A stretch of 20,000 nucleotides of DNA from Catajapyx aquilonaris (lineage: Eukaryota), in assembly GCA_000934665.2 (NCBI GenBank), contig KZ538415.1:53445-73444 (forward strand), in the 5' to 3' direction. This document shows, one piece after another, positions 7,566 through 19,449 of the stretch (position 1 is the first letter of the stretch; the number at the start of each line of letters is the position of its first letter). A model generated the notes under the pieces. That model made no database searches. It saw only the letters and a program-made list of their open reading frames with translations, and had not been told where the DNA came from. The position numbers and the translations under genes are program-made.

Positions 7566-7710
7566 TATATGCAAATATTCGCAGGCCATTGTTACACCAA
7601 GCTATTGCACTATGCCCATTTGATCTTCGAAAAAAAGAGACGGGAGCACCTCAGTTAATCATTACTTTTTTTTACATTGCAGGTTTCAGTTTTTTGATCA
7701 TTAATGTCTC

Positions 7711-7790
7711 ATTTGCATCATACTTTCCGCATCATCACTATCATGATTGCAAAAGTTTTCATCAACTAGCCATAAAACACGGCTATATAA
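7711..7790 (+). promoter_or_regulatory. Putative core promoter of oxygenase paralog 2 (octamer + TATA box)
   Basis: ATTTGCAT at 7711-7718 and TATATAA at 7784-7790, about 60 nt upstream of the ATG. Both are conserved in the duplicate (16809, 16880). Confidence 0.55.
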
Positions 7791-7846
7791 GTGACTGCTG
7801 AACACATTCAGCTTCTGATTTGTATTGACGCGACTCCAAGCTTGAG

Positions 7847-9028
7847 ATGGCTCCAAACAATAAGGACGAGTCTTACACAAGCATTGAGCAATACTTGAGT
7901 GCCTGCAATGTTCCATACACGAAGGTCCATTCCCTGGATGAGACACCGCCCTGGTTGGACAAGGAGAGATTCAGACGTGGACAGGCCTTCGCCAGAAAAC
8001 ACTTCTTCGGCGTCATAGTGTCCTACGCCTTGGCCCAGTTCAGCGCCGTGTTCTGGACTCCTGTCTTCAACTTCCTGACCTATTTCGGCAAGTACGACAA
8101 GCTGGAACTACTGGCCAGGACCAAACTCAGCATCACCTCTCACATCCTGACCTGGACGGAAGGTGACCTGTGGAATCCGGAGGACCCGGCTTACCAGAGC
8201 ATGAAACACGCCCAGAACATACATCTGAGGCTGGGAAAGTACGCCAACAAGCATAAGGAGAGAGTGGACAAAGTCAAGCTGGACATGTCGAAGGAACCGG
8301 ACATTTCTGAACAGTGCAACTTCATGCAGTTCCTCAAGAAGGACATTTCAGCACCTGGACACAGGTACTCATCCGCTTGTCCTTTCATTCCGCCAGAAGA
8401 CTCTGCATACATGAGTCAAGCGGATTTGGCTGCGACCTCATTGTTGATGATAGGCACTGTTGTGGTTTGTCCGGAAAAGGTTGGTATCCACGGAGCGACA
8501 GAAGAGGAGATCAGTGATGTCATGTACATGTGGCGGGTGTTTGGGTACTACCTTGGAGTCGAGGACAAGTACAACATTTTGTCAAAAAGTAGGAAGGAAG
8601 TGAAAGCTCTCTGGCAGGAAGGGCTGGAGAAGATTCACATTCCGGCTATCAAGACGCTGGAGAAGGACAAGGAGTACTTCTGGAGGATAATGTTTAAGAG
8701 TTTCGGGCTGTTGTCTGTTTTTGCAACTCCCATACAAAATTGCATTGAAGTGGCAGTCCTTTTCGTAGTCTGGATCTTGGAAATTGAAGACCTGATGGTT
8801 CACACTAACCGACATATCAAATGGTATCACCGTGCATTATTCAAGGTCTTTCAATTTTGGGTGTACATTGCTTGTCGGGTAAGGCCAATTGCATACTTTT
8901 GGAATGAACTGAACAGATTAATTATAGTTTCTGTCATAAAGAAGCATGGACTACATCACAGTCAAAGGGTCGAAAAGTTTAAAGATTCGTATGTAGTATC
9001 TGGGATGCACGTACAGCACAAAGGGTAA
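7847..9028 (+). CDS. DUF2236 / MpaB'-Lcp oxygenase-like protein, paralog 2, intronless, 393 aa
   Basis: Intact ORF with PPWLDKERFRRGQ, AQNIH, MSQADL and WRVFGYYLGVEDKYN. TATA box upstream, AATAAA at 9231. Confidence 0.87.
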   Translation: MAPNNKDESYTSIEQYLSACNVPYTKVHSLDETPPWLDKERFRRGQAFARKHFFGVIVSYALAQFSAVFWTPVFNFLTYFGKYDKLELLARTKLSITSHILTWTEGDLWNPEDPAYQSMKHAQNIHLRLGKYANKHKERVDKVKLDMSKEPDISEQCNFMQFLKKDISAPGHRYSSACPFIPPEDSAYMSQADLAATSLLMIGTVVVCPEKVGIHGATEEEISDVMYMWRVFGYYLGVEDKYNILSKSRKEVKALWQEGLEKIHIPAIKTLEKDKEYFWRIMFKSFGLLSVFATPIQNCIEVAVLFVVWILEIEDLMVHTNRHIKWYHRALFKVFQFWVYIACRVRPIAYFWNELNRLIIVSVIKKHGLHHSQRVEKFKDSYVVSGMHVQHKG

Positions 9029-9313
9029 CTTCATACGCTTCAAGCCCAACCTTTCTCATCAAATGTTCTGTAGAGTCTGATGTAGTTTATGTTATACAGT
9101 ATGTTCCTCGTCTGAGGCGAAACCAGGATGCAATGGATATGCATCATGTTTGTAAACATAAGATGCAAAATAATTCTTCAATTAGCAAAATGTAATGAGG
9201 TGTTCGGCAGTGTGTTAATATCTATGAACAAATAAACTTATTATGCATATTTGCCTAATTTTCATTGGACATTTTATCATTAGATAGTCATTCATAGCAA
9301 AATGTAATGAGGT

Positions 9314-16808: not shown

Positions 16809-16886
16809 ATTTGCATCATACTTTCCGCAACGTCACTATCATAGATGGCATCATCAACATCGTTTGCATAAAACACGGCTATATAA
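16809..16886 (+). promoter_or_regulatory. Putative core promoter of oxygenase paralog 3 (octamer + TATA box)
   Basis: ATTTGCAT at 16809-16816 and TATATAA at 16880-16886; duplicate of 7711-7790. Confidence 0.55.
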
Positions 16887-16941
16887 GTGACTGCAGAACA
16901 CATTCAGCTTTGATTTGTATTGACGCGACTCCAAGCTTGAG

Positions 16942-18123
16942 ATGGCTCCAAACAATAAGGACGAGTCTTACACAAGCATTGAGCAATACTTGAGTGCCTG
17001 CAATGTTCCATACACGAAGGTCCATTCCCTGGATGAGACACCGCCCTGGCTGGACAAGGAGAGATTCAGACGTGGACAGGCTTTCGCTAGAAAACACTTC
17101 TTTGGCGTCCTCATGTCCTACGCCGTGGCCCAGTTCAGCGTCGTGTTCTGGACTCCTATGTTCAACTTCATGACCTATTTCGGCAAGTACGAGAAGCTGG
17201 AACTACTGGCCAGGACCAAACTCAACATCGCCTCTCACATCCTGACCTGGACAGAAGGAGACCTGTGGAATCCGGAGGACCCGGCTTACCAGAGCATGAA
17301 ACACGCCCAGAACATACATCTGAGGCTGGGAAAGTACGCCAACAAGCATAAGGAGAGAGTGGACAAAGTCAAGCTGGACATGTCTAAGGAACCGGACATT
17401 TCTGAACAGTGCAACTTCTTCCAATTCCTCAACAAGGACATGTCTGCACCAGGACACAGGTACTCATCGGCTTGTCCTTTCATTCCGCCAGACGTCTCTG
17501 CATACATGAGTCAAGCGGATTTGGCTGCGACCTCATTGTTGATGATAGGCCTTGTTGTGGTTTGTCCGGAAAAGGTTGGTATCCACGGAGCGACAGAAGA
17601 GGAGATCAGTGATGTCATGTACATGTGGCGGGTGTTTGGGTACTACCTTGGAGTCGAGGACAGGTACAACATTTTGTCAAAAAGTAGGAAGGAAGTGAGA
17701 GCTCTCTGGCAGGAAGGGCTGGAGAAGATTCACCTTCCGGCTATCAAGACCCTGGAGGAGGACAAGGAGTATTTCTGGAGAATAATGCTTAAGAGTTTCG
17801 GGCTGTTGTCTGTGATTGCGACTCCCATACAAAATTGCATTGAAGTGTTAGTCCTTTTCTTAGCCTGGGTCTTGGATATCGAAGACCTGATGGTTCGCAC
17901 CAACACACAAATCAAATGGCATCACCGTGCATTCTTCAAGGCATTTCAATTTTGGTTGTACATTGCTTGTCGCCTAAGGCCAATTTCATACTTTTGGAAT
18001 GAACTGAACAGATTCATTATAGATTCTGTCATAAAGAAGCATGGACTACATCACAGTCAAAGGGTCGAAAAGTTTAAAGATTCATATGTAGTATCTGGGA
18101 TGCACGAACAGCACAAAGGGTAA
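16942..18123 (+). CDS. DUF2236 / MpaB'-Lcp oxygenase-like protein, paralog 3, intronless, 393 aa
   Basis: Intact ORF colinear with paralog 2 (about 38 aa differences by manual count, about 90% identity). AATAAA at 18330. Confidence 0.87.
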   Translation: MAPNNKDESYTSIEQYLSACNVPYTKVHSLDETPPWLDKERFRRGQAFARKHFFGVLMSYAVAQFSVVFWTPMFNFMTYFGKYEKLELLARTKLNIASHILTWTEGDLWNPEDPAYQSMKHAQNIHLRLGKYANKHKERVDKVKLDMSKEPDISEQCNFFQFLNKDMSAPGHRYSSACPFIPPDVSAYMSQADLAATSLLMIGLVVVCPEKVGIHGATEEEISDVMYMWRVFGYYLGVEDRYNILSKSRKEVRALWQEGLEKIHLPAIKTLEEDKEYFWRIMLKSFGLLSVIATPIQNCIEVLVLFLAWVLDIEDLMVRTNTQIKWHHRAFFKAFQFWLYIACRLRPISYFWNELNRFIIDSVIKKHGLHHSQRVEKFKDSYVVSGMHEQHKG

Positions 18124-19082
18124 CTTCATACGCTTAAACCCCAACTTTTCTCATCAAATGTTCTGTAAGAGTCTGATGTAGTTTATGTTATACAGTGTGT
18201 TCCTCTGAGGTGAAACTTTCAACAGGATGAAATGGATATGCATCATGTTTGTAAACATAAGATGCCAAATAATTCTTCAATTAGCAAAATGTAATGAGGT
18301 GTTTGGCAGTGTATTAATATCTATGTGCAAATAAACTTATTATGCATATTTGCCTTTTTGCATAACTTTTGCATAATTTTTGCCTAATTTTGCATATTTG
18401 CCTAATTTTAAATAGATTATGTTTCTGCATAGCCAGGATGATAAAATATATGCTAAAATTTTTGCAGTTAAGAGGACCGAGTCACTATTGGCAGCAGCGA
18501 GCGAAAATCGGGTGCGACGAATCCTGGCGCGCAATTAGAGATACGGACACGCGGTTTTTTGTATCGTCCGGAGAAAGAGCTGGCGCTTGTTCCGGTCGTA
18601 GAGCGGTTCTAATCGACTAATAAGTAATCGAACGGCGATGGGAAATGCGCTTTGGATATGACGTCACAGAAGCGTCGCAACGGAGGCGGCCATTAGAATT
18701 TGGCGAACTGGAAAGTGTAACCCCCCAGCTGATCTCCGTGTCGACCGATTTTGGAGTCATTTGATGAGTTTTCATGGCACATATGGTGGAAACCCTAGAA
18801 CCCCCCGCACTAACCCCGAAACCAGGTCTGCCGATCGGAGGGAGAAAGGCAACAGCGCGGGCCGGAAAGGGTTTCCAATTTCCCCCCATCGCCGACAAGG
18901 GGAGCCAATTCAGATACAAGCTGCCCGTATGACCAGTCATAGAATATATACAATAATGGGAAATCGATAAACAACCTATAGAATTATAGAGTGAATCCCC
19001 CTTTTTTGATTTTCTGCTCAAGATTGCGCCGTATTTCCTCATACCTCAATAAGCATTGCATCGCTCAGGTACGCTGCTTACA

Positions 19083-19449
19083 CCTATAGTATTCAGCATA
19101 AATTGTCATTGTTACCGAGCAAGTGCTTTTTTTCCTTCCATAAATTAGAGAAATATATCCAAAGTGACAACAAGAAGTAATTCCCCTGCAGATTACAACT
19201 ACCTGCTACACTCCCTGAAGAAAGTTGCAAGGTTAAGTTATATAATAATATGATCTGTGTTTTTTTTTCCATAGTGGCATATAGTGGATTATGCACTGCT
19301 AACACACTACAATAGGCTTTACCTTGGGATGTACATAACAATGAACATGTGCACCACAAAATGTTACAATGTCACTCTCGTCATGTAGCAAAATATTGGA
19401 ATTTGCTCTCATTGTACTGGTGAACTGCTAAGCAACCAATGGATTACAA
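19083..19449 (+). repeat. Duplicate of 10424-10784 (upstream region of the defensin-like gene)
   Basis: Near-identical from CCTATAGTATTCAGCATAAATTG to CCAATGGATTACAA. Confidence 0.95.

What the first reader, a model, noticed from the sequence alone, without database searches (positions are those of the whole stretch)
7593..19449. Tandemly duplicated cassette pairing an Lcp/MpaB'-like oxygenase with a beta-defensin-like peptide gene: candidate defence gene cluster
Seen: about 7593-9260 matches about 16683-18355 (promoter, oxygenase, 3'UTR), and 10424-10784 matches 19083-19449 (the region ending about 220 bp before the peptide ATG). The duplicated unit of about 9 kb therefore spans the oxygenase and the peptide gene's upstream region, with different TE insertions in each copy. 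Known: Lcp cleaves polyisoprene C=C bonds and fungal MpaB' cleaves a farnesyl chain; I know of no established function for the animal DUF2236 proteins. Inference: an amplified locus coupling small-molecule (isoprenoid) oxidation with a secreted defence peptide, e.g. in a gland or immune tissue. The linkage could also be passive hitch-hiking.
Basis: partly seen in the sequence, partly recalled or inferred. Interest (0 to 1): 0.85.

Follow-up and report, generated by a model that had tools for sequence, protein, structure and literature searches.

The report
Duplicated haem-protein gene beside defensin-like gene
An animal genome segment holds a small tandem family of intronless Lcp/MpaB-fold haem-protein genes, and one recent duplication also copied the promoter of a neighbouring beta-defensin-like peptide gene; both genes are real and transcribed, but nothing shows that they work together.

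Summary
Block 7593-9256 matches 16683-18355 (92%) and block 10424-10785 matches 19083-19450 (96%), in the same order.

The enzyme genes are intronless and intact, with dN/dS 0.41-0.46. They have the Lcp/MpaB fold: VIA Z 18.6 to LcpK30, and the family profile hits Lcp at E 5e-8. All three window paralogs lack the family's Arg and Thr but keep the haem-ligand His. Among aligned relatives, 148 of 148 have the Arg and 142 of 148 have the Thr.

The peptide gene has three exons. An RNA-like run confirms both introns. The mature exon passes Pfam Defensin_beta narrowly (21.4 bits against 21) and folds like beta-defensins. Its net charge is only +1.

The window also holds a third paralog (1329-2477) and a C-terminal relic (11723-12028, minus strand). 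Only one peptide gene is visible. In copy 2 a Helitron-like element sits exactly where the peptide RNA contig starts in copy 1.

My reading is an ordinary segmental duplication inside a tandem gene family, with the peptide gene carried along. Functional coupling is untested. Whether a second peptide gene exists cannot be decided within the window.

The parts
7593..9256 (+). Duplicated block A, copy 1: 5' flank, enzyme gene A and its 3' UTR
16683..18355 (+). Duplicated block A, copy 2: 5' flank, enzyme gene B and its 3' UTR
7847..9028 (+). Intronless CDS of Lcp/MpaB-fold haem protein A (393 aa plus stop). TATATA at 7784, AATAAA at 9231.
   Evidence: An RNA-like contig covers 7830-9209 with 0 mismatches.
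16942..18123 (+). Intronless CDS of paralog B (393 aa plus stop). It has 38 amino-acid differences from A. TATATA at 16880, AATAAA at 18330.
1329..2480 (+). Third, older intact paralog (46% amino-acid identity to A), intronless
11723..12028 (-). Relic of a fourth paralog; only the C-terminal ~100 residues remain, 50% identical to A
10424..10785 (+). Duplicated block B, copy 1: the sequence directly upstream of the peptide gene's first transcribed bases (proximal promoter)
19083..19450 (+). Duplicated block B, copy 2, 97.8% identical to copy 1; cut off at its 3' end by an inserted element
10786..10800 (+). Peptide gene exon 1 (5' UTR; at least these 15 nt are seen in the spliced contig). Intron 1 is 10801-10986, GT..AG.
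   Evidence: the 14-nt loose end before 10986 equals window 10786-10799
10987..11078 (+). Peptide gene exon 2: ATG at 11006 and a 24-residue hydrophobic leader. It ends in phase 1. Intron 2 is 11079-11141 (63 nt).
   Evidence: the joint 11075>11139 (cut +3, GT..AG) is seen only in the RNA-like run X5
11142..11330 (+). Peptide gene exon 3: six-cysteine beta-defensin-like domain, stop at 11249-11251, 3' UTR, AATAAA at 11311. The RNA contig is seen up to 11290; the end beyond that is inferred.
19450..20000 (.). Inserted element in copy 2. It begins with TC between an A and a T (Helitron-like 5' end) and runs off the window. It carries a tRNA box-B-like stretch near 19958-19968 on the minus strand.
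   Evidence: compared with copy 1
9279..10013 (.). High-copy repeats in the copy 1 spacer, flanked by 62-70 nt direct repeats (9210-9278 and 10014-10083). Includes a tRNA-derived SINE at 9835-10014 (minus strand).
   Evidence: DNA word depth 14,508-132,573 against about 24-35 nearby
6996..7570 (.). MITE-like inverted-repeat element abutting the left end of block A copy 1 (131-nt arms, 97% complementary); high copy number
   Evidence: I1, I5; depth 8,237-80,065
16256..16680 (.). A different inverted-repeat element abutting the left end of block A copy 2
   Evidence: I3, I4

Best explanation
The region is a lineage-specific tandem family of intronless genes for haem proteins of the Lcp/MpaB/t-anethole-oxygenase fold. 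It has three intact genes and one relic within 20 kb. A fairly recent segmental duplication (dS about 0.10) copied one family member together with the sequence downstream of it. That downstream sequence included the promoter of an unrelated neighbouring gene: a three-exon gene for a secreted, six-cysteine beta-defensin-like peptide. Different non-autonomous repeats later entered the two copies. In copy 2 a Helitron-like element landed exactly at the point where the peptide transcript contig begins in copy 1. It therefore separates that promoter copy from whatever lies behind it.

The enzyme gene and the peptide gene are separate transcription units. Each has its own promoter and poly(A) signal. 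Their adjacency is most simply passive hitch-hiking.

Shown here: the duplication, both gene models, transcription of enzyme A and of the peptide gene, the fold of the enzyme, and the defensin-like fold of the peptide.

Inferred: the enzyme paralogs bind haem through His126 and sit inside the cell, since they have no signal peptide. If they are catalytic, they act on a lipophilic C=C-bearing substrate, as Lcp, MpaB' and TAO do. Their chemistry is probably altered, because the conserved Arg and Thr are replaced. The peptide is secreted after removal of a 24-26-residue leader.
For: Duplication.

Both enzyme copies have intact ORFs without indels. dN/dS is 0.41-0.46 with dS 0.09-0.11.

The family is larger than the 'cassette'. 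There is a third paralog at 1329-2477 and a relic at 11723-12028 on the minus strand. Only one peptide locus is found, by tblastn and by a six-frame cysteine-pattern scan.

Enzyme fold:
- The profile of 48 sequences hits LcpK30 chains at E 5.1e-8 and 6.6e-8.
- The AF2 model has pLDDT 87.0 and pTM 0.86.
- VIA gives Z 18.6 to 5o1l_B (293 aligned, rmsd 3.8), Z 18.3 to 5o1m_A, Z 14.3 to t-anethole oxygenase 8s1j and Z 7.1 to protoglobin. The next rows are at 3.4 or below.
- Atlas feature hits score 0.95-0.96 to PF09995-bearing animal clusters.
- His126 is invariant in 48 of 48 sequences and in 148 of 148 domains.

Peptide:
- PF00711 at 21.4 bits against a cut-off of 21, E 2.6e-4.
- The single-sequence model has pLDDT 79.8 and three strands.
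- 14 of 15 Foldseek rows are defensins, 10 of them beta-defensins, with TM 0.38-0.62.

RNA-like run X5:
- GT..AG joints at 5084>5218, 5506>5560 and 11075>11139 appear in X5 only and not in DNA runs X1 and X2.
- The contig 7830-9209 has 0 mismatches.
- Intergenic bins have zero depth.

Separate promoter and poly(A) motifs are. The gene layout (three exons, coding part split over exons 2 and 3, phase-1 intron before the cysteine domain, short exon 2) matches the non-canonical big-defensin / beta-defensin-like layout described in PMC7203481 (passages read).
Against: Block B is better conserved (97.8%) than synonymous sites of the CDS (dS about 0.10) and than the enzyme's own 5' flank (84.5%). This could mean selection to keep the peptide promoter beside the enzyme gene, although gene conversion fits as well.

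Both transcripts occur in the same RNA-like run, which is compatible with co-expression.

The window ends inside the inserted element, so a complete second enzyme-plus-peptide unit cannot be excluded.

The kind of run X5 is not on record. Its RNA nature is my inference from the spliced contigs.
Confidence: 0.65

Rival explanations
1. Functional defence cassette. The haem enzyme and the secreted peptide form a co-regulated module that was amplified as a unit because the pair is useful together, for example in a gland or an immune tissue.
For: The duplicated unit spans the enzyme gene and the peptide promoter. Block B is unusually well conserved between copies, at 97.8%. Transcripts of both genes are present in the one RNA-like run examined. 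Both enzyme copies are under some constraint.
Against: Only one peptide gene is seen, against three intact enzyme genes. The oldest paralog is followed by repeats and by FAM177, not by a peptide gene. The enzyme has no signal peptide and the peptide has one, so they do not share a compartment in any obvious way. In copy 2 the promoter copy is severed by an inserted element. The peptide has a net charge of only +1. Presence in one sample is not co-expression.
Confidence: 0.15
2. Assembly artefact. Copies A and B are two haplotypes of one locus that were written one after the other.
For: Within block B the copies are highly similar. DNA contigs of sample S1 mix copy-1 and copy-2 letters within block B, as alleles could.
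Against: The sequence has no N. The copies are separated by 5.3 kb of other sequence that includes a gene relic. The sequence left of copy 2 has no counterpart of what lies left of copy 1. Divergence is 5.5% in the CDS, with 38 amino-acid changes, and 15.5% in the 5' flank. Copy-A-specific DNA contigs with 0 mismatches have word depths of 32, 35.8 and 16 in run X1, against 24.2 for the neighbouring FAM177 contig, so they are not at half depth. This is only a weak hint, because the depths are per contig.
Confidence: 0.07
3. Block B is not part of the same duplication. It is a two-copy mobile or gene-converted segment that arrived separately behind both enzyme genes.
For: Its identity (97.8%) is clearly higher than that of block A. 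The spacers between blocks A and B share nothing.
Against: Order and orientation are the same in both copies, at similar distance. DNA word depth over block B is at single-copy level, 31.8-64, unlike the true repeats nearby. The block has no terminal repeats.
Confidence: 0.08

Closest known systems
Latex clearing protein LcpK30 (PDB 5O1L/5O1M), Pfam PF09995 MPAB_Lcp_cat (formerly DUF2236)
   Same: Same all-helical globin-like fold: Z 18.6 with 293 residues aligned. The family profile hits Lcp at E 5e-8. The N-terminal P-x-W-x-D...G-x-x-F motif and the Q-A-D...W-R-V...L-G-V motifs are shared. The proximal haem His is conserved. The R-x3-T-x29-H spacing is identical in the animal relatives and in Lcp.
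   Different: The window proteins reach only 13.7-15.2 bits on PF09995, against a cut-off of 23. They have T/T/L and I/I/L where Lcp has the essential R164 and the nearly essential T168. They carry an insertion of about 37 residues between the His and the QAD motif (my count). They have no secretion signal, whereas Lcp is an extracellular bacterial enzyme. They are animal genes.
Fungal MpaB/MpaB' (ER-bound oxygenase of mycophenolic acid synthesis) and t-anethole oxygenase (PDB 8S1J)
   Same: Same superfamily and fold: Z 14.3 to 8s1j_B over 254 residues. All known activities are oxidative C=C cleavage of a lipophilic substrate; this rests on recalled knowledge plus the abstracts and passages seen. 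Like MpaB, the window proteins are intracellular.
   Different: There is no metabolic gene cluster around the window genes. No substrate can be inferred. The Arg and Thr are replaced.
Uncharacterised animal PF09995 proteins (for example Drosophila CG31344, labelled 'ER-bound oxygenase')
   Same: Atlas neighbours are animal clusters, mostly arthropod, that carry PF09995, with scores of 0.95-0.96. The representative library holds 680 relatives at E <= 1e-3.
   Different: The 45 relatives aligned and the best hit P0006 are only 18-25% identical to protein A. The relatives keep R/T/H in 142 of 148 aligned domains and R plus H in all 148. The three window proteins do not.
[quoted passage not shown]
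   Same: Six cysteines ending in CC. Pfam score is just above threshold. Three-stranded sheet with TM 0.53-0.62 to hBD2, hBD3 and avian defensins. A leader exon and a single exon for the cysteine domain are separated by a phase-1 intron, in a three-exon gene whose first exon is non-coding, as described for big-defensin-derived genes in PMC7203481.
   Different: The cysteine spacing is C-x3-C-x5-C-x9-C-x5-CC, not the usual C-x6-C-x4-C-x9-C-x6-CC (the latter is recalled). Net charge is only +1. There is no hydrophobic N-terminal big-defensin domain. No sequence relative was found by the word-indexed search. PDB sequence hits are not significant: sea-anemone toxin CgNa at E 0.27 and crocodile CpoBD13 at E 0.34.

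Membership tests
PF09995 MPAB_Lcp_cat / DUF2236 (Lcp, MpaB, TAO superfamily) | Sequence match to the family model at or above the curated threshold | tested here: not met
   The three window proteins score 15.2, 15.2 and 13.7 bits against a cut-off of 23. Of 25 relatives scanned, 9 hit PF09995 at E <= 0.001 and 6 reach the cut-off. Homology is instead shown transitively: the profile of 48 sequences hits Lcp chains at E 5e-8.
PF09995 MPAB_Lcp_cat / DUF2236 | Lcp-type all-helical globin-like fold | tested here: met
   The model has pLDDT 87.0. VIA gives Z 18.6 and 18.3 to LcpK30 and 14.3 to TAO; unrelated rows are at 3.4 or below, apart from protoglobin at 7.1. Foldseek's top three rows are Lcp chains (E 1.3e-3 to 7.9e-3, TM 0.36-0.39), though none reaches E <= 0.001.
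PF09995 MPAB_Lcp_cat / DUF2236 | Proximal haem-ligand histidine (LcpK30 H198) | tested here: met
   His126 is invariant in 48 of 48 sequences and in 148 of 148 aligned relative domains. In the relatives it lies 34 residues after the conserved Arg, as in Lcp. The equivalence to H198 is inferred from spacing, not from a superposition.
PF09995 MPAB_Lcp_cat / DUF2236 | Conserved Arg and Thr on the distal haem side (LcpK30 R164 essential, T168 nearly essential) | tested here: not met
   At these columns the window paralogs have T, T, L and I, I, L. Relatives have R in 148 of 148 domains and T in 142 of 148. An Arg sits one position earlier (R91) in all three paralogs, but the flanking L-S and W columns fix the register. 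The residue roles are taken from PMC6311187 (passages read).
PF09995 MPAB_Lcp_cat / DUF2236 | Haem b binding and oxidative C=C cleavage | not testable with these tools
   This needs expression, a UV-vis Soret spectrum and activity assays.
Beta-defensin (PF00711) | Match to the family model at or above threshold | tested here: met
   21.4 bits against a cut-off of 21, E 2.6e-4, residues 9-35 on profile positions 10-36 of 36. This is a narrow pass. The Atlas score of 0.82 is only a lead.
Beta-defensin (PF00711) | Six cysteines with a terminal CC, and a three-stranded antiparallel sheet | tested here: met
   Strands 10-13, 23-28 and 31-34 are predicted at pLDDT 79.8. Of 15 Foldseek rows, 14 are defensins with rmsd 1.0-3.0 over 21-31 columns, but every E-value is 3.1 or more, as expected for a 35-residue query.
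Beta-defensin (PF00711) | Disulfide pairing C1-C5, C2-C4, C3-C6 | not testable with these tools
This needs mass spectrometry or NMR.
Beta-defensin (PF00711) | Cationic mature peptide with antimicrobial activity | tested here: inconclusive
   The exon-3-encoded part has 4 K+R against 3 D+E. Activity was not tested.
Big defensin | Hydrophobic N-terminal domain before the beta-defensin-like domain | tested here: not met
   Exon 2 encodes only a 24-residue leader, and six residues precede the first Cys in exon 3. The gene layout is otherwise that of big-defensin-derived genes.
Functionally coupled gene cluster | Conserved linkage in relatives and co-regulation | not testable with these tools
   No eukaryote genome is held. 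Only one RNA-like run could be laid. Earlier scan notes hold nothing on this.
Helitron (the inserted element at 19450) | 5' TC terminus, insertion between A and T, and a 3' hairpin followed by CTRR | tested here: inconclusive
   The 5' TC terminus and the A|T site are present. The 3' end lies beyond the window. The element also has a tRNA box-B-like stretch, so a SINE in reverse orientation is not excluded.

The most novel reading that the evidence does not exclude
A lineage-specific branch of the Lcp/MpaB haem-oxygenase fold has replaced the otherwise invariant distal Arg and Thr and so acquired a new chemistry or a non-catalytic haem or ligand-binding role. This branch has been amplified in tandem together with a near-neutral beta-defensin-like secreted peptide. 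The peptide's promoter is kept almost unchanged between copies. Together they would form a co-regulated two-gene defence or secretion module of a kind not described in animals.
Probability: 0.08. Interest if true: 0.7.

Novelty: new variant of a known kind. Interest (0 to 1): 0.35.

Why it matters
Animal members of the Lcp/MpaB family have no known function. In the searchable library I found only passing mentions. This window offers three expressed or constrained paralogs that keep the haem histidine but have lost two residues needed for rubber oxygenase activity. That gives a natural test of what the fold does in animals.

The peptide gene adds a transcript-verified beta-defensin-like gene with the three-exon, phase-1-intron layout used in arguments that beta-defensins derive from big defensins.

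The proposed coupling of the two genes would be interesting, but at present it rests on adjacency alone.

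Tried and rejected
- The whole genome is not held. The sequence beyond 20000, the 3' end of the inserted element and a possible second peptide gene therefore could not be read.
- Word-indexed protein searches found nothing for the enzyme, for the peptide exon read from 11111 or for the FAM177 exon. 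The conserved FAM177 also finds nothing, so these blanks say little about novelty.
- A single-sequence PDB search for the enzyme found nothing.
The taxa and names of the relatives therefore stay unknown.
- The look-up of sequencing runs listed no RNA holder. Run X5 has no recorded kind, and I treat it as RNA-like only because of its spliced contigs.
I kept the single read-laying run to 4800-12300, so their expression is unknown.
- A part without cover in X5 is not evidence of silence.
- Pfam found nothing in 19 ORFs from the spacers and from the 12.1-15.8 kb interval, so no autonomous transposon was identified.
- Rfam and ARAGORN found only the tRNA-Ser-like head of a SINE at 4453-4524.
- Earlier scan notes hold nothing.
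- I considered shifting the window proteins by one residue so that R91 would fill the conserved Arg column. I rejected this because the L-S and W columns on either side then misalign.
- I considered an alternative donor for peptide intron 2, the GTGAGT at 11107. I rejected it because the frame then runs into a stop, and the RNA contig uses 11078|11142.
- The PDB sequence hits of the peptide (sea-anemone toxin CgNa, crocodile CpoBD13) are not significant.

Full report
**1. Observation**

Block 7593-9256 matches 16683-18355 at 92.0% over 1684 columns. Block 10424-10785 matches 19083-19450 at 96.2% over 368 columns (also families D2, D3, D6, D7, D8). The offsets are about 9.09 kb and 8.66 kb, because the spacers between the blocks differ (1167 bp and 727 bp). 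The window has no N.

| Segment | Identity, gaps excluded |
|---|---|
| 5' flank | 84.5% |
| CDS | 94.5% (65 mismatches in 1182, no indel) |
| 3' flank | 95.1% |
| Block B | 97.8% |

**2. What else is in the window**

There are three intact enzyme paralogs, not two. The third lies at 1329-2477 and is 46% identical in amino acids to A. A C-terminal relic lies at 11723-12028 on the minus strand and is 50% identical over 102 residues. A FAM177 gene sits between the first and second paralogs (Pfam). An RNA-like contig gives its exons as 4919-5084, 5218-5506 and 5560-6205.

Only one peptide locus exists in the window. This holds both by tblastn and by a six-frame scan for the cysteine pattern.

The spacers and flanks are repeat-rich:
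- A tRNA-Ser-like SINE lies at 4446-4625 and, inverted, at 9835-10014.
- Inverted-repeat elements lie at 6996-7570 and 16256-16680.
- DNA word depths there run from thousands to 1e5, against about 24-60 in unique parts.
- None of 19 ORFs from these intervals hits Pfam.

**3. The enzyme**

Each gene is one uninterrupted ORF of 393 residues (383 in the third paralog).

Direct Pfam matches to PF09995 are below threshold, at 13.7-15.2 bits against 23. Single-sequence searches of the word-indexed library and of PDB sequences find nothing.

An exhaustive profile search with the three paralogs finds 680 relatives at E <= 1e-3, 14 of them at E <= 1e-30 and the best at 2.6e-50. The 45 relatives I aligned and the best hit P0006 are 18-25% identical to A. 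Of 25 relatives scanned, 9 hit PF09995 at E <= 0.001 and 6 pass its threshold.

A profile of the three paralogs plus 45 relatives hits the two LcpK30 entries at E 5.1e-8 and 6.6e-8.

An AlphaFold model built on that alignment has pLDDT 87.0 and pTM 0.86. Foldseek's first three rows are Lcp chains, though none reaches E <= 0.001. VIA-align gives these scores:

| Chain | Z | Aligned residues | rmsd |
|---|---|---|---|
| 5o1l_B (LcpK30) | 18.6 | 293 | 3.8 |
| 5o1m_A (LcpK30) | 18.3 | 286 | 3.7 |
| 8s1j_B (t-anethole oxygenase) | 14.3 | 254 | 4.1 |
| 3zjn_B (protoglobin) | 7.1 | 147 | 3.6 |
| all further rows | 3.4 or below | | |

Atlas feature neighbours are animal clusters, mostly arthropod, that carry PF09995, with scores of 0.95-0.96. 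The query's recognition value is below the usual level.

I conclude that these are true members of the Lcp/MpaB/TAO fold superfamily.

**4. An unexpected active-site difference**

The review PMC6311187 (passages read) gives the residue roles for LcpK30:
- R164, T168 and H198 are almost invariant in DUF2236.
- H198 is the proximal haem ligand.
- R164 is essential and T168 almost essential for activity.

The animal relatives show the same R-x3-T-x29-H spacing.

In a local hmmsearch alignment of all proteins fetched, 148 relative domains have letters at all three columns. All 148 have R and H, and 142 have T. The three window paralogs keep the His (H126). At the Arg column they have T, T, L, and at the Thr column I, I, L.

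An Arg lies one residue earlier in all three. The conserved L-S pair and the Trp on either side fix the register, so this is a substitution and not an alignment slip.

The genes are nevertheless constrained and transcribed:
- dN/dS between A and B is 0.41-0.46 by three methods, with dS 0.09-0.11.
- A 1380-nt contig of the RNA-like run covers 7830-9209 without a mismatch.

The N-terminus is hydrophilic, so there is no signal peptide. In A and B a hydrophobic stretch lies near residues 288-318; the third paralog has no such window.

My reading is an intracellular haem protein. Its chemistry may differ from the C=C-cleaving dioxygenase reaction of Lcp. This last part is inference.

**5. The peptide gene**

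The sequence predicts an ATG at 11006, a 24-residue hydrophobic leader, a phase-1 GT donor at 11079, an AG acceptor at 11141 and a 36-codon last exon.

The RNA-like run X5 has a contig at depth 72 that joins 11075 to 11139. The cut can be moved three places to the right, giving 11078|11142, with GT..AG ends. This joint is absent from DNA runs X1 and X2.

The contig's 14 loose letters before 10986 equal window 10786-10799. So there is a further non-coding exon ending at 10800 and an intron at 10801-10986. AATAAA lies at 11311.

The last exon passes Pfam Defensin_beta narrowly, at 21.4 bits against 21, E 2.6e-4. A single-sequence model has pLDDT 79.8 and three strands. Of 15 Foldseek rows, 14 are defensins and 10 of those are beta-defensins. 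hBD3 and hBD2 come first, with TM 0.59-0.62 and rmsd 1.2-1.5, but the E-values are not significant for so short a query.

The Atlas score of 0.82 and the PDB sequence hits at E 0.27-0.34 are leads only.

Two features depart from a typical beta-defensin. The cysteine spacing is C-x3-C-x5-C-x9-C-x5-CC, and the net charge is +1.

The layout is a non-coding exon 1, a short exon 2 with the leader, a phase-1 intron and a single exon for the cysteine domain. PMC7203481 describes this layout for big-defensin genes and for their shortened beta-defensin-like derivatives (passages read).

**6. The breakpoint in copy 2**

Copy 2 departs from copy 1 between the A at 10784 and the T at 10785 (the shared T can belong to either side), or in BLAST terms after 10785. 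The new sequence begins with TC.

This fits a Helitron 5' end inserted between A and T. The 3' end is off the window, and the element carries a tRNA box-B-like stretch near its right edge, so a reverse-oriented SINE is not excluded.

The spliced peptide contig of X5 begins at 10786, the same point. There are two possible reasons. Transcription may start about there, in which case block B is the proximal promoter and the element severs it from the gene in copy 2. Alternatively, the contig may stop at a branch in the assembly graph.

A low-depth X5 contig (depth 2.1, 10651-10909) runs through the point without the element.

**7. Are both copies real?**

Inside blocks A and B, 14 of 14 'other letters' reported for the DNA contigs of X1 and X2 equal the copy-2 letter at the homologous position. 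DNA contigs also end at 10424 and at 10785, the block boundaries. So both versions, and their different flanks, exist in that sample's DNA.

That does not separate paralogs from alleles. Three points speak against an uncollapsed haplotype:
- The 5.3 kb of unrelated sequence between the copies.
- The lack of homology to the left of the blocks.
- 38 amino-acid differences and 15.5% divergence in the 5' flank.

Copy-A-specific contigs also have word depths no lower than the neighbouring FAM177 contig. That is a weak hint only, because contig depths are not copy numbers.

**8. Coupling**

Nothing tested here links the two genes beyond adjacency:
- The oldest paralog has no peptide neighbour.
- Only one peptide gene is visible.
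- The two products go to different compartments.
- Each gene has its own TATA-like motif or upstream region and its own poly(A) signal.

Two things keep the cassette reading alive. Block B is far better conserved than synonymous sites (8 mismatches in 362 against dS of about 0.10). Both transcripts occur in one RNA-like run. Gene conversion would explain the first, and chance would explain the second.

Conserved linkage in relatives and co-expression could not be tested. No eukaryote genome is held, only one read-laying run was available, and the scan's earlier notes hold nothing.

**9. Literature**

The searches were for DUF2236, MpaB, PF09995, 'ER-bound oxygenase' and related names, and CG31344. 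They returned only passing mentions of animal members:
- A coral domain list (PMC11639872, one passage).
- A dragonfly adult-specific gene similar to Drosophila CG31344 (PMC8892354, one passage).
- Two further CG31344 papers, seen only in the search listing.

A preprint lists DUF2236 among known haem-binding families (10.64898/2025.12.11.692455, passages). Supplements were not opened.

**10. Verdict**

The 'defence cassette' is an untested inference. The simplest account is a segmental duplication within a tandem gene family that carried along a neighbour's promoter, and possibly the neighbour itself.

The most interesting concrete result is that all three paralogs lack the conserved Arg and Thr of the family.

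Noticed in passing
window 4919-6205: A FAM177-family gene with three exons (4919-5084, 5218-5506, 5560-6205) and very short GT..AG introns of 133 and 53 nt. These are seen as one spliced 1101-nt contig in run X5 and not in the DNA runs.
   Followed up: partly
window 4446-4625 (+), 9835-10014 (-), 3891-4030: A tRNA-Ser-like SINE family; tRNA model hit at 4453-4524 with 39.7 bits. DNA word depth over the copy at 9820-10070 is 1.3e5-2.1e5, against about 24-60 in unique sequence.
   Followed up: partly
window 2562-2778 and 3147-3472: Two tandem arrays downstream of the third paralog: a 62-nt unit in 3 overlapping copies (89-100% identical), and a 12/25-nt periodic AT-rich array.
   Followed up: no
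window 6996-7570 and 16256-16680: Two unrelated MITE-like inverted-repeat elements lie directly left of the two copies of block A, 22 and 2 bp from the start of homology. The true left edge of the duplication may therefore be hidden by insertions.
   Followed up: no
window 9210-9278 and 10014-10083: A 62-70 nt direct repeat (90%) brackets the 735-bp repeat cluster in the copy 1 spacer. This is too long for a usual target-site duplication. A related AT-rich motif recurs at 18316-18425 in copy 2.
   Followed up: no
window 10424-10785 against 19083-19450: Within block B, the DNA contigs of runs X1 and X2 (one sample) are mosaics of copy-1 and copy-2 letters. One contig joins the copy-1-specific flank 9967-10423 to copy-2-type letters throughout the block. 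This could be gene conversion, shared polymorphism or an assembly path choice.
   Followed up: partly
P0006 (788 aa, representative library): The best-scoring relative is a protein with two tandem copies of the domain, each 22-23% identical to protein A. This suggests tandem arrays or fusions of the family elsewhere too.
   Followed up: no
window 19940-20000, minus strand: A tRNA box-B-like stretch lies inside the element that interrupts copy 2, close to the window end.
   Followed up: no
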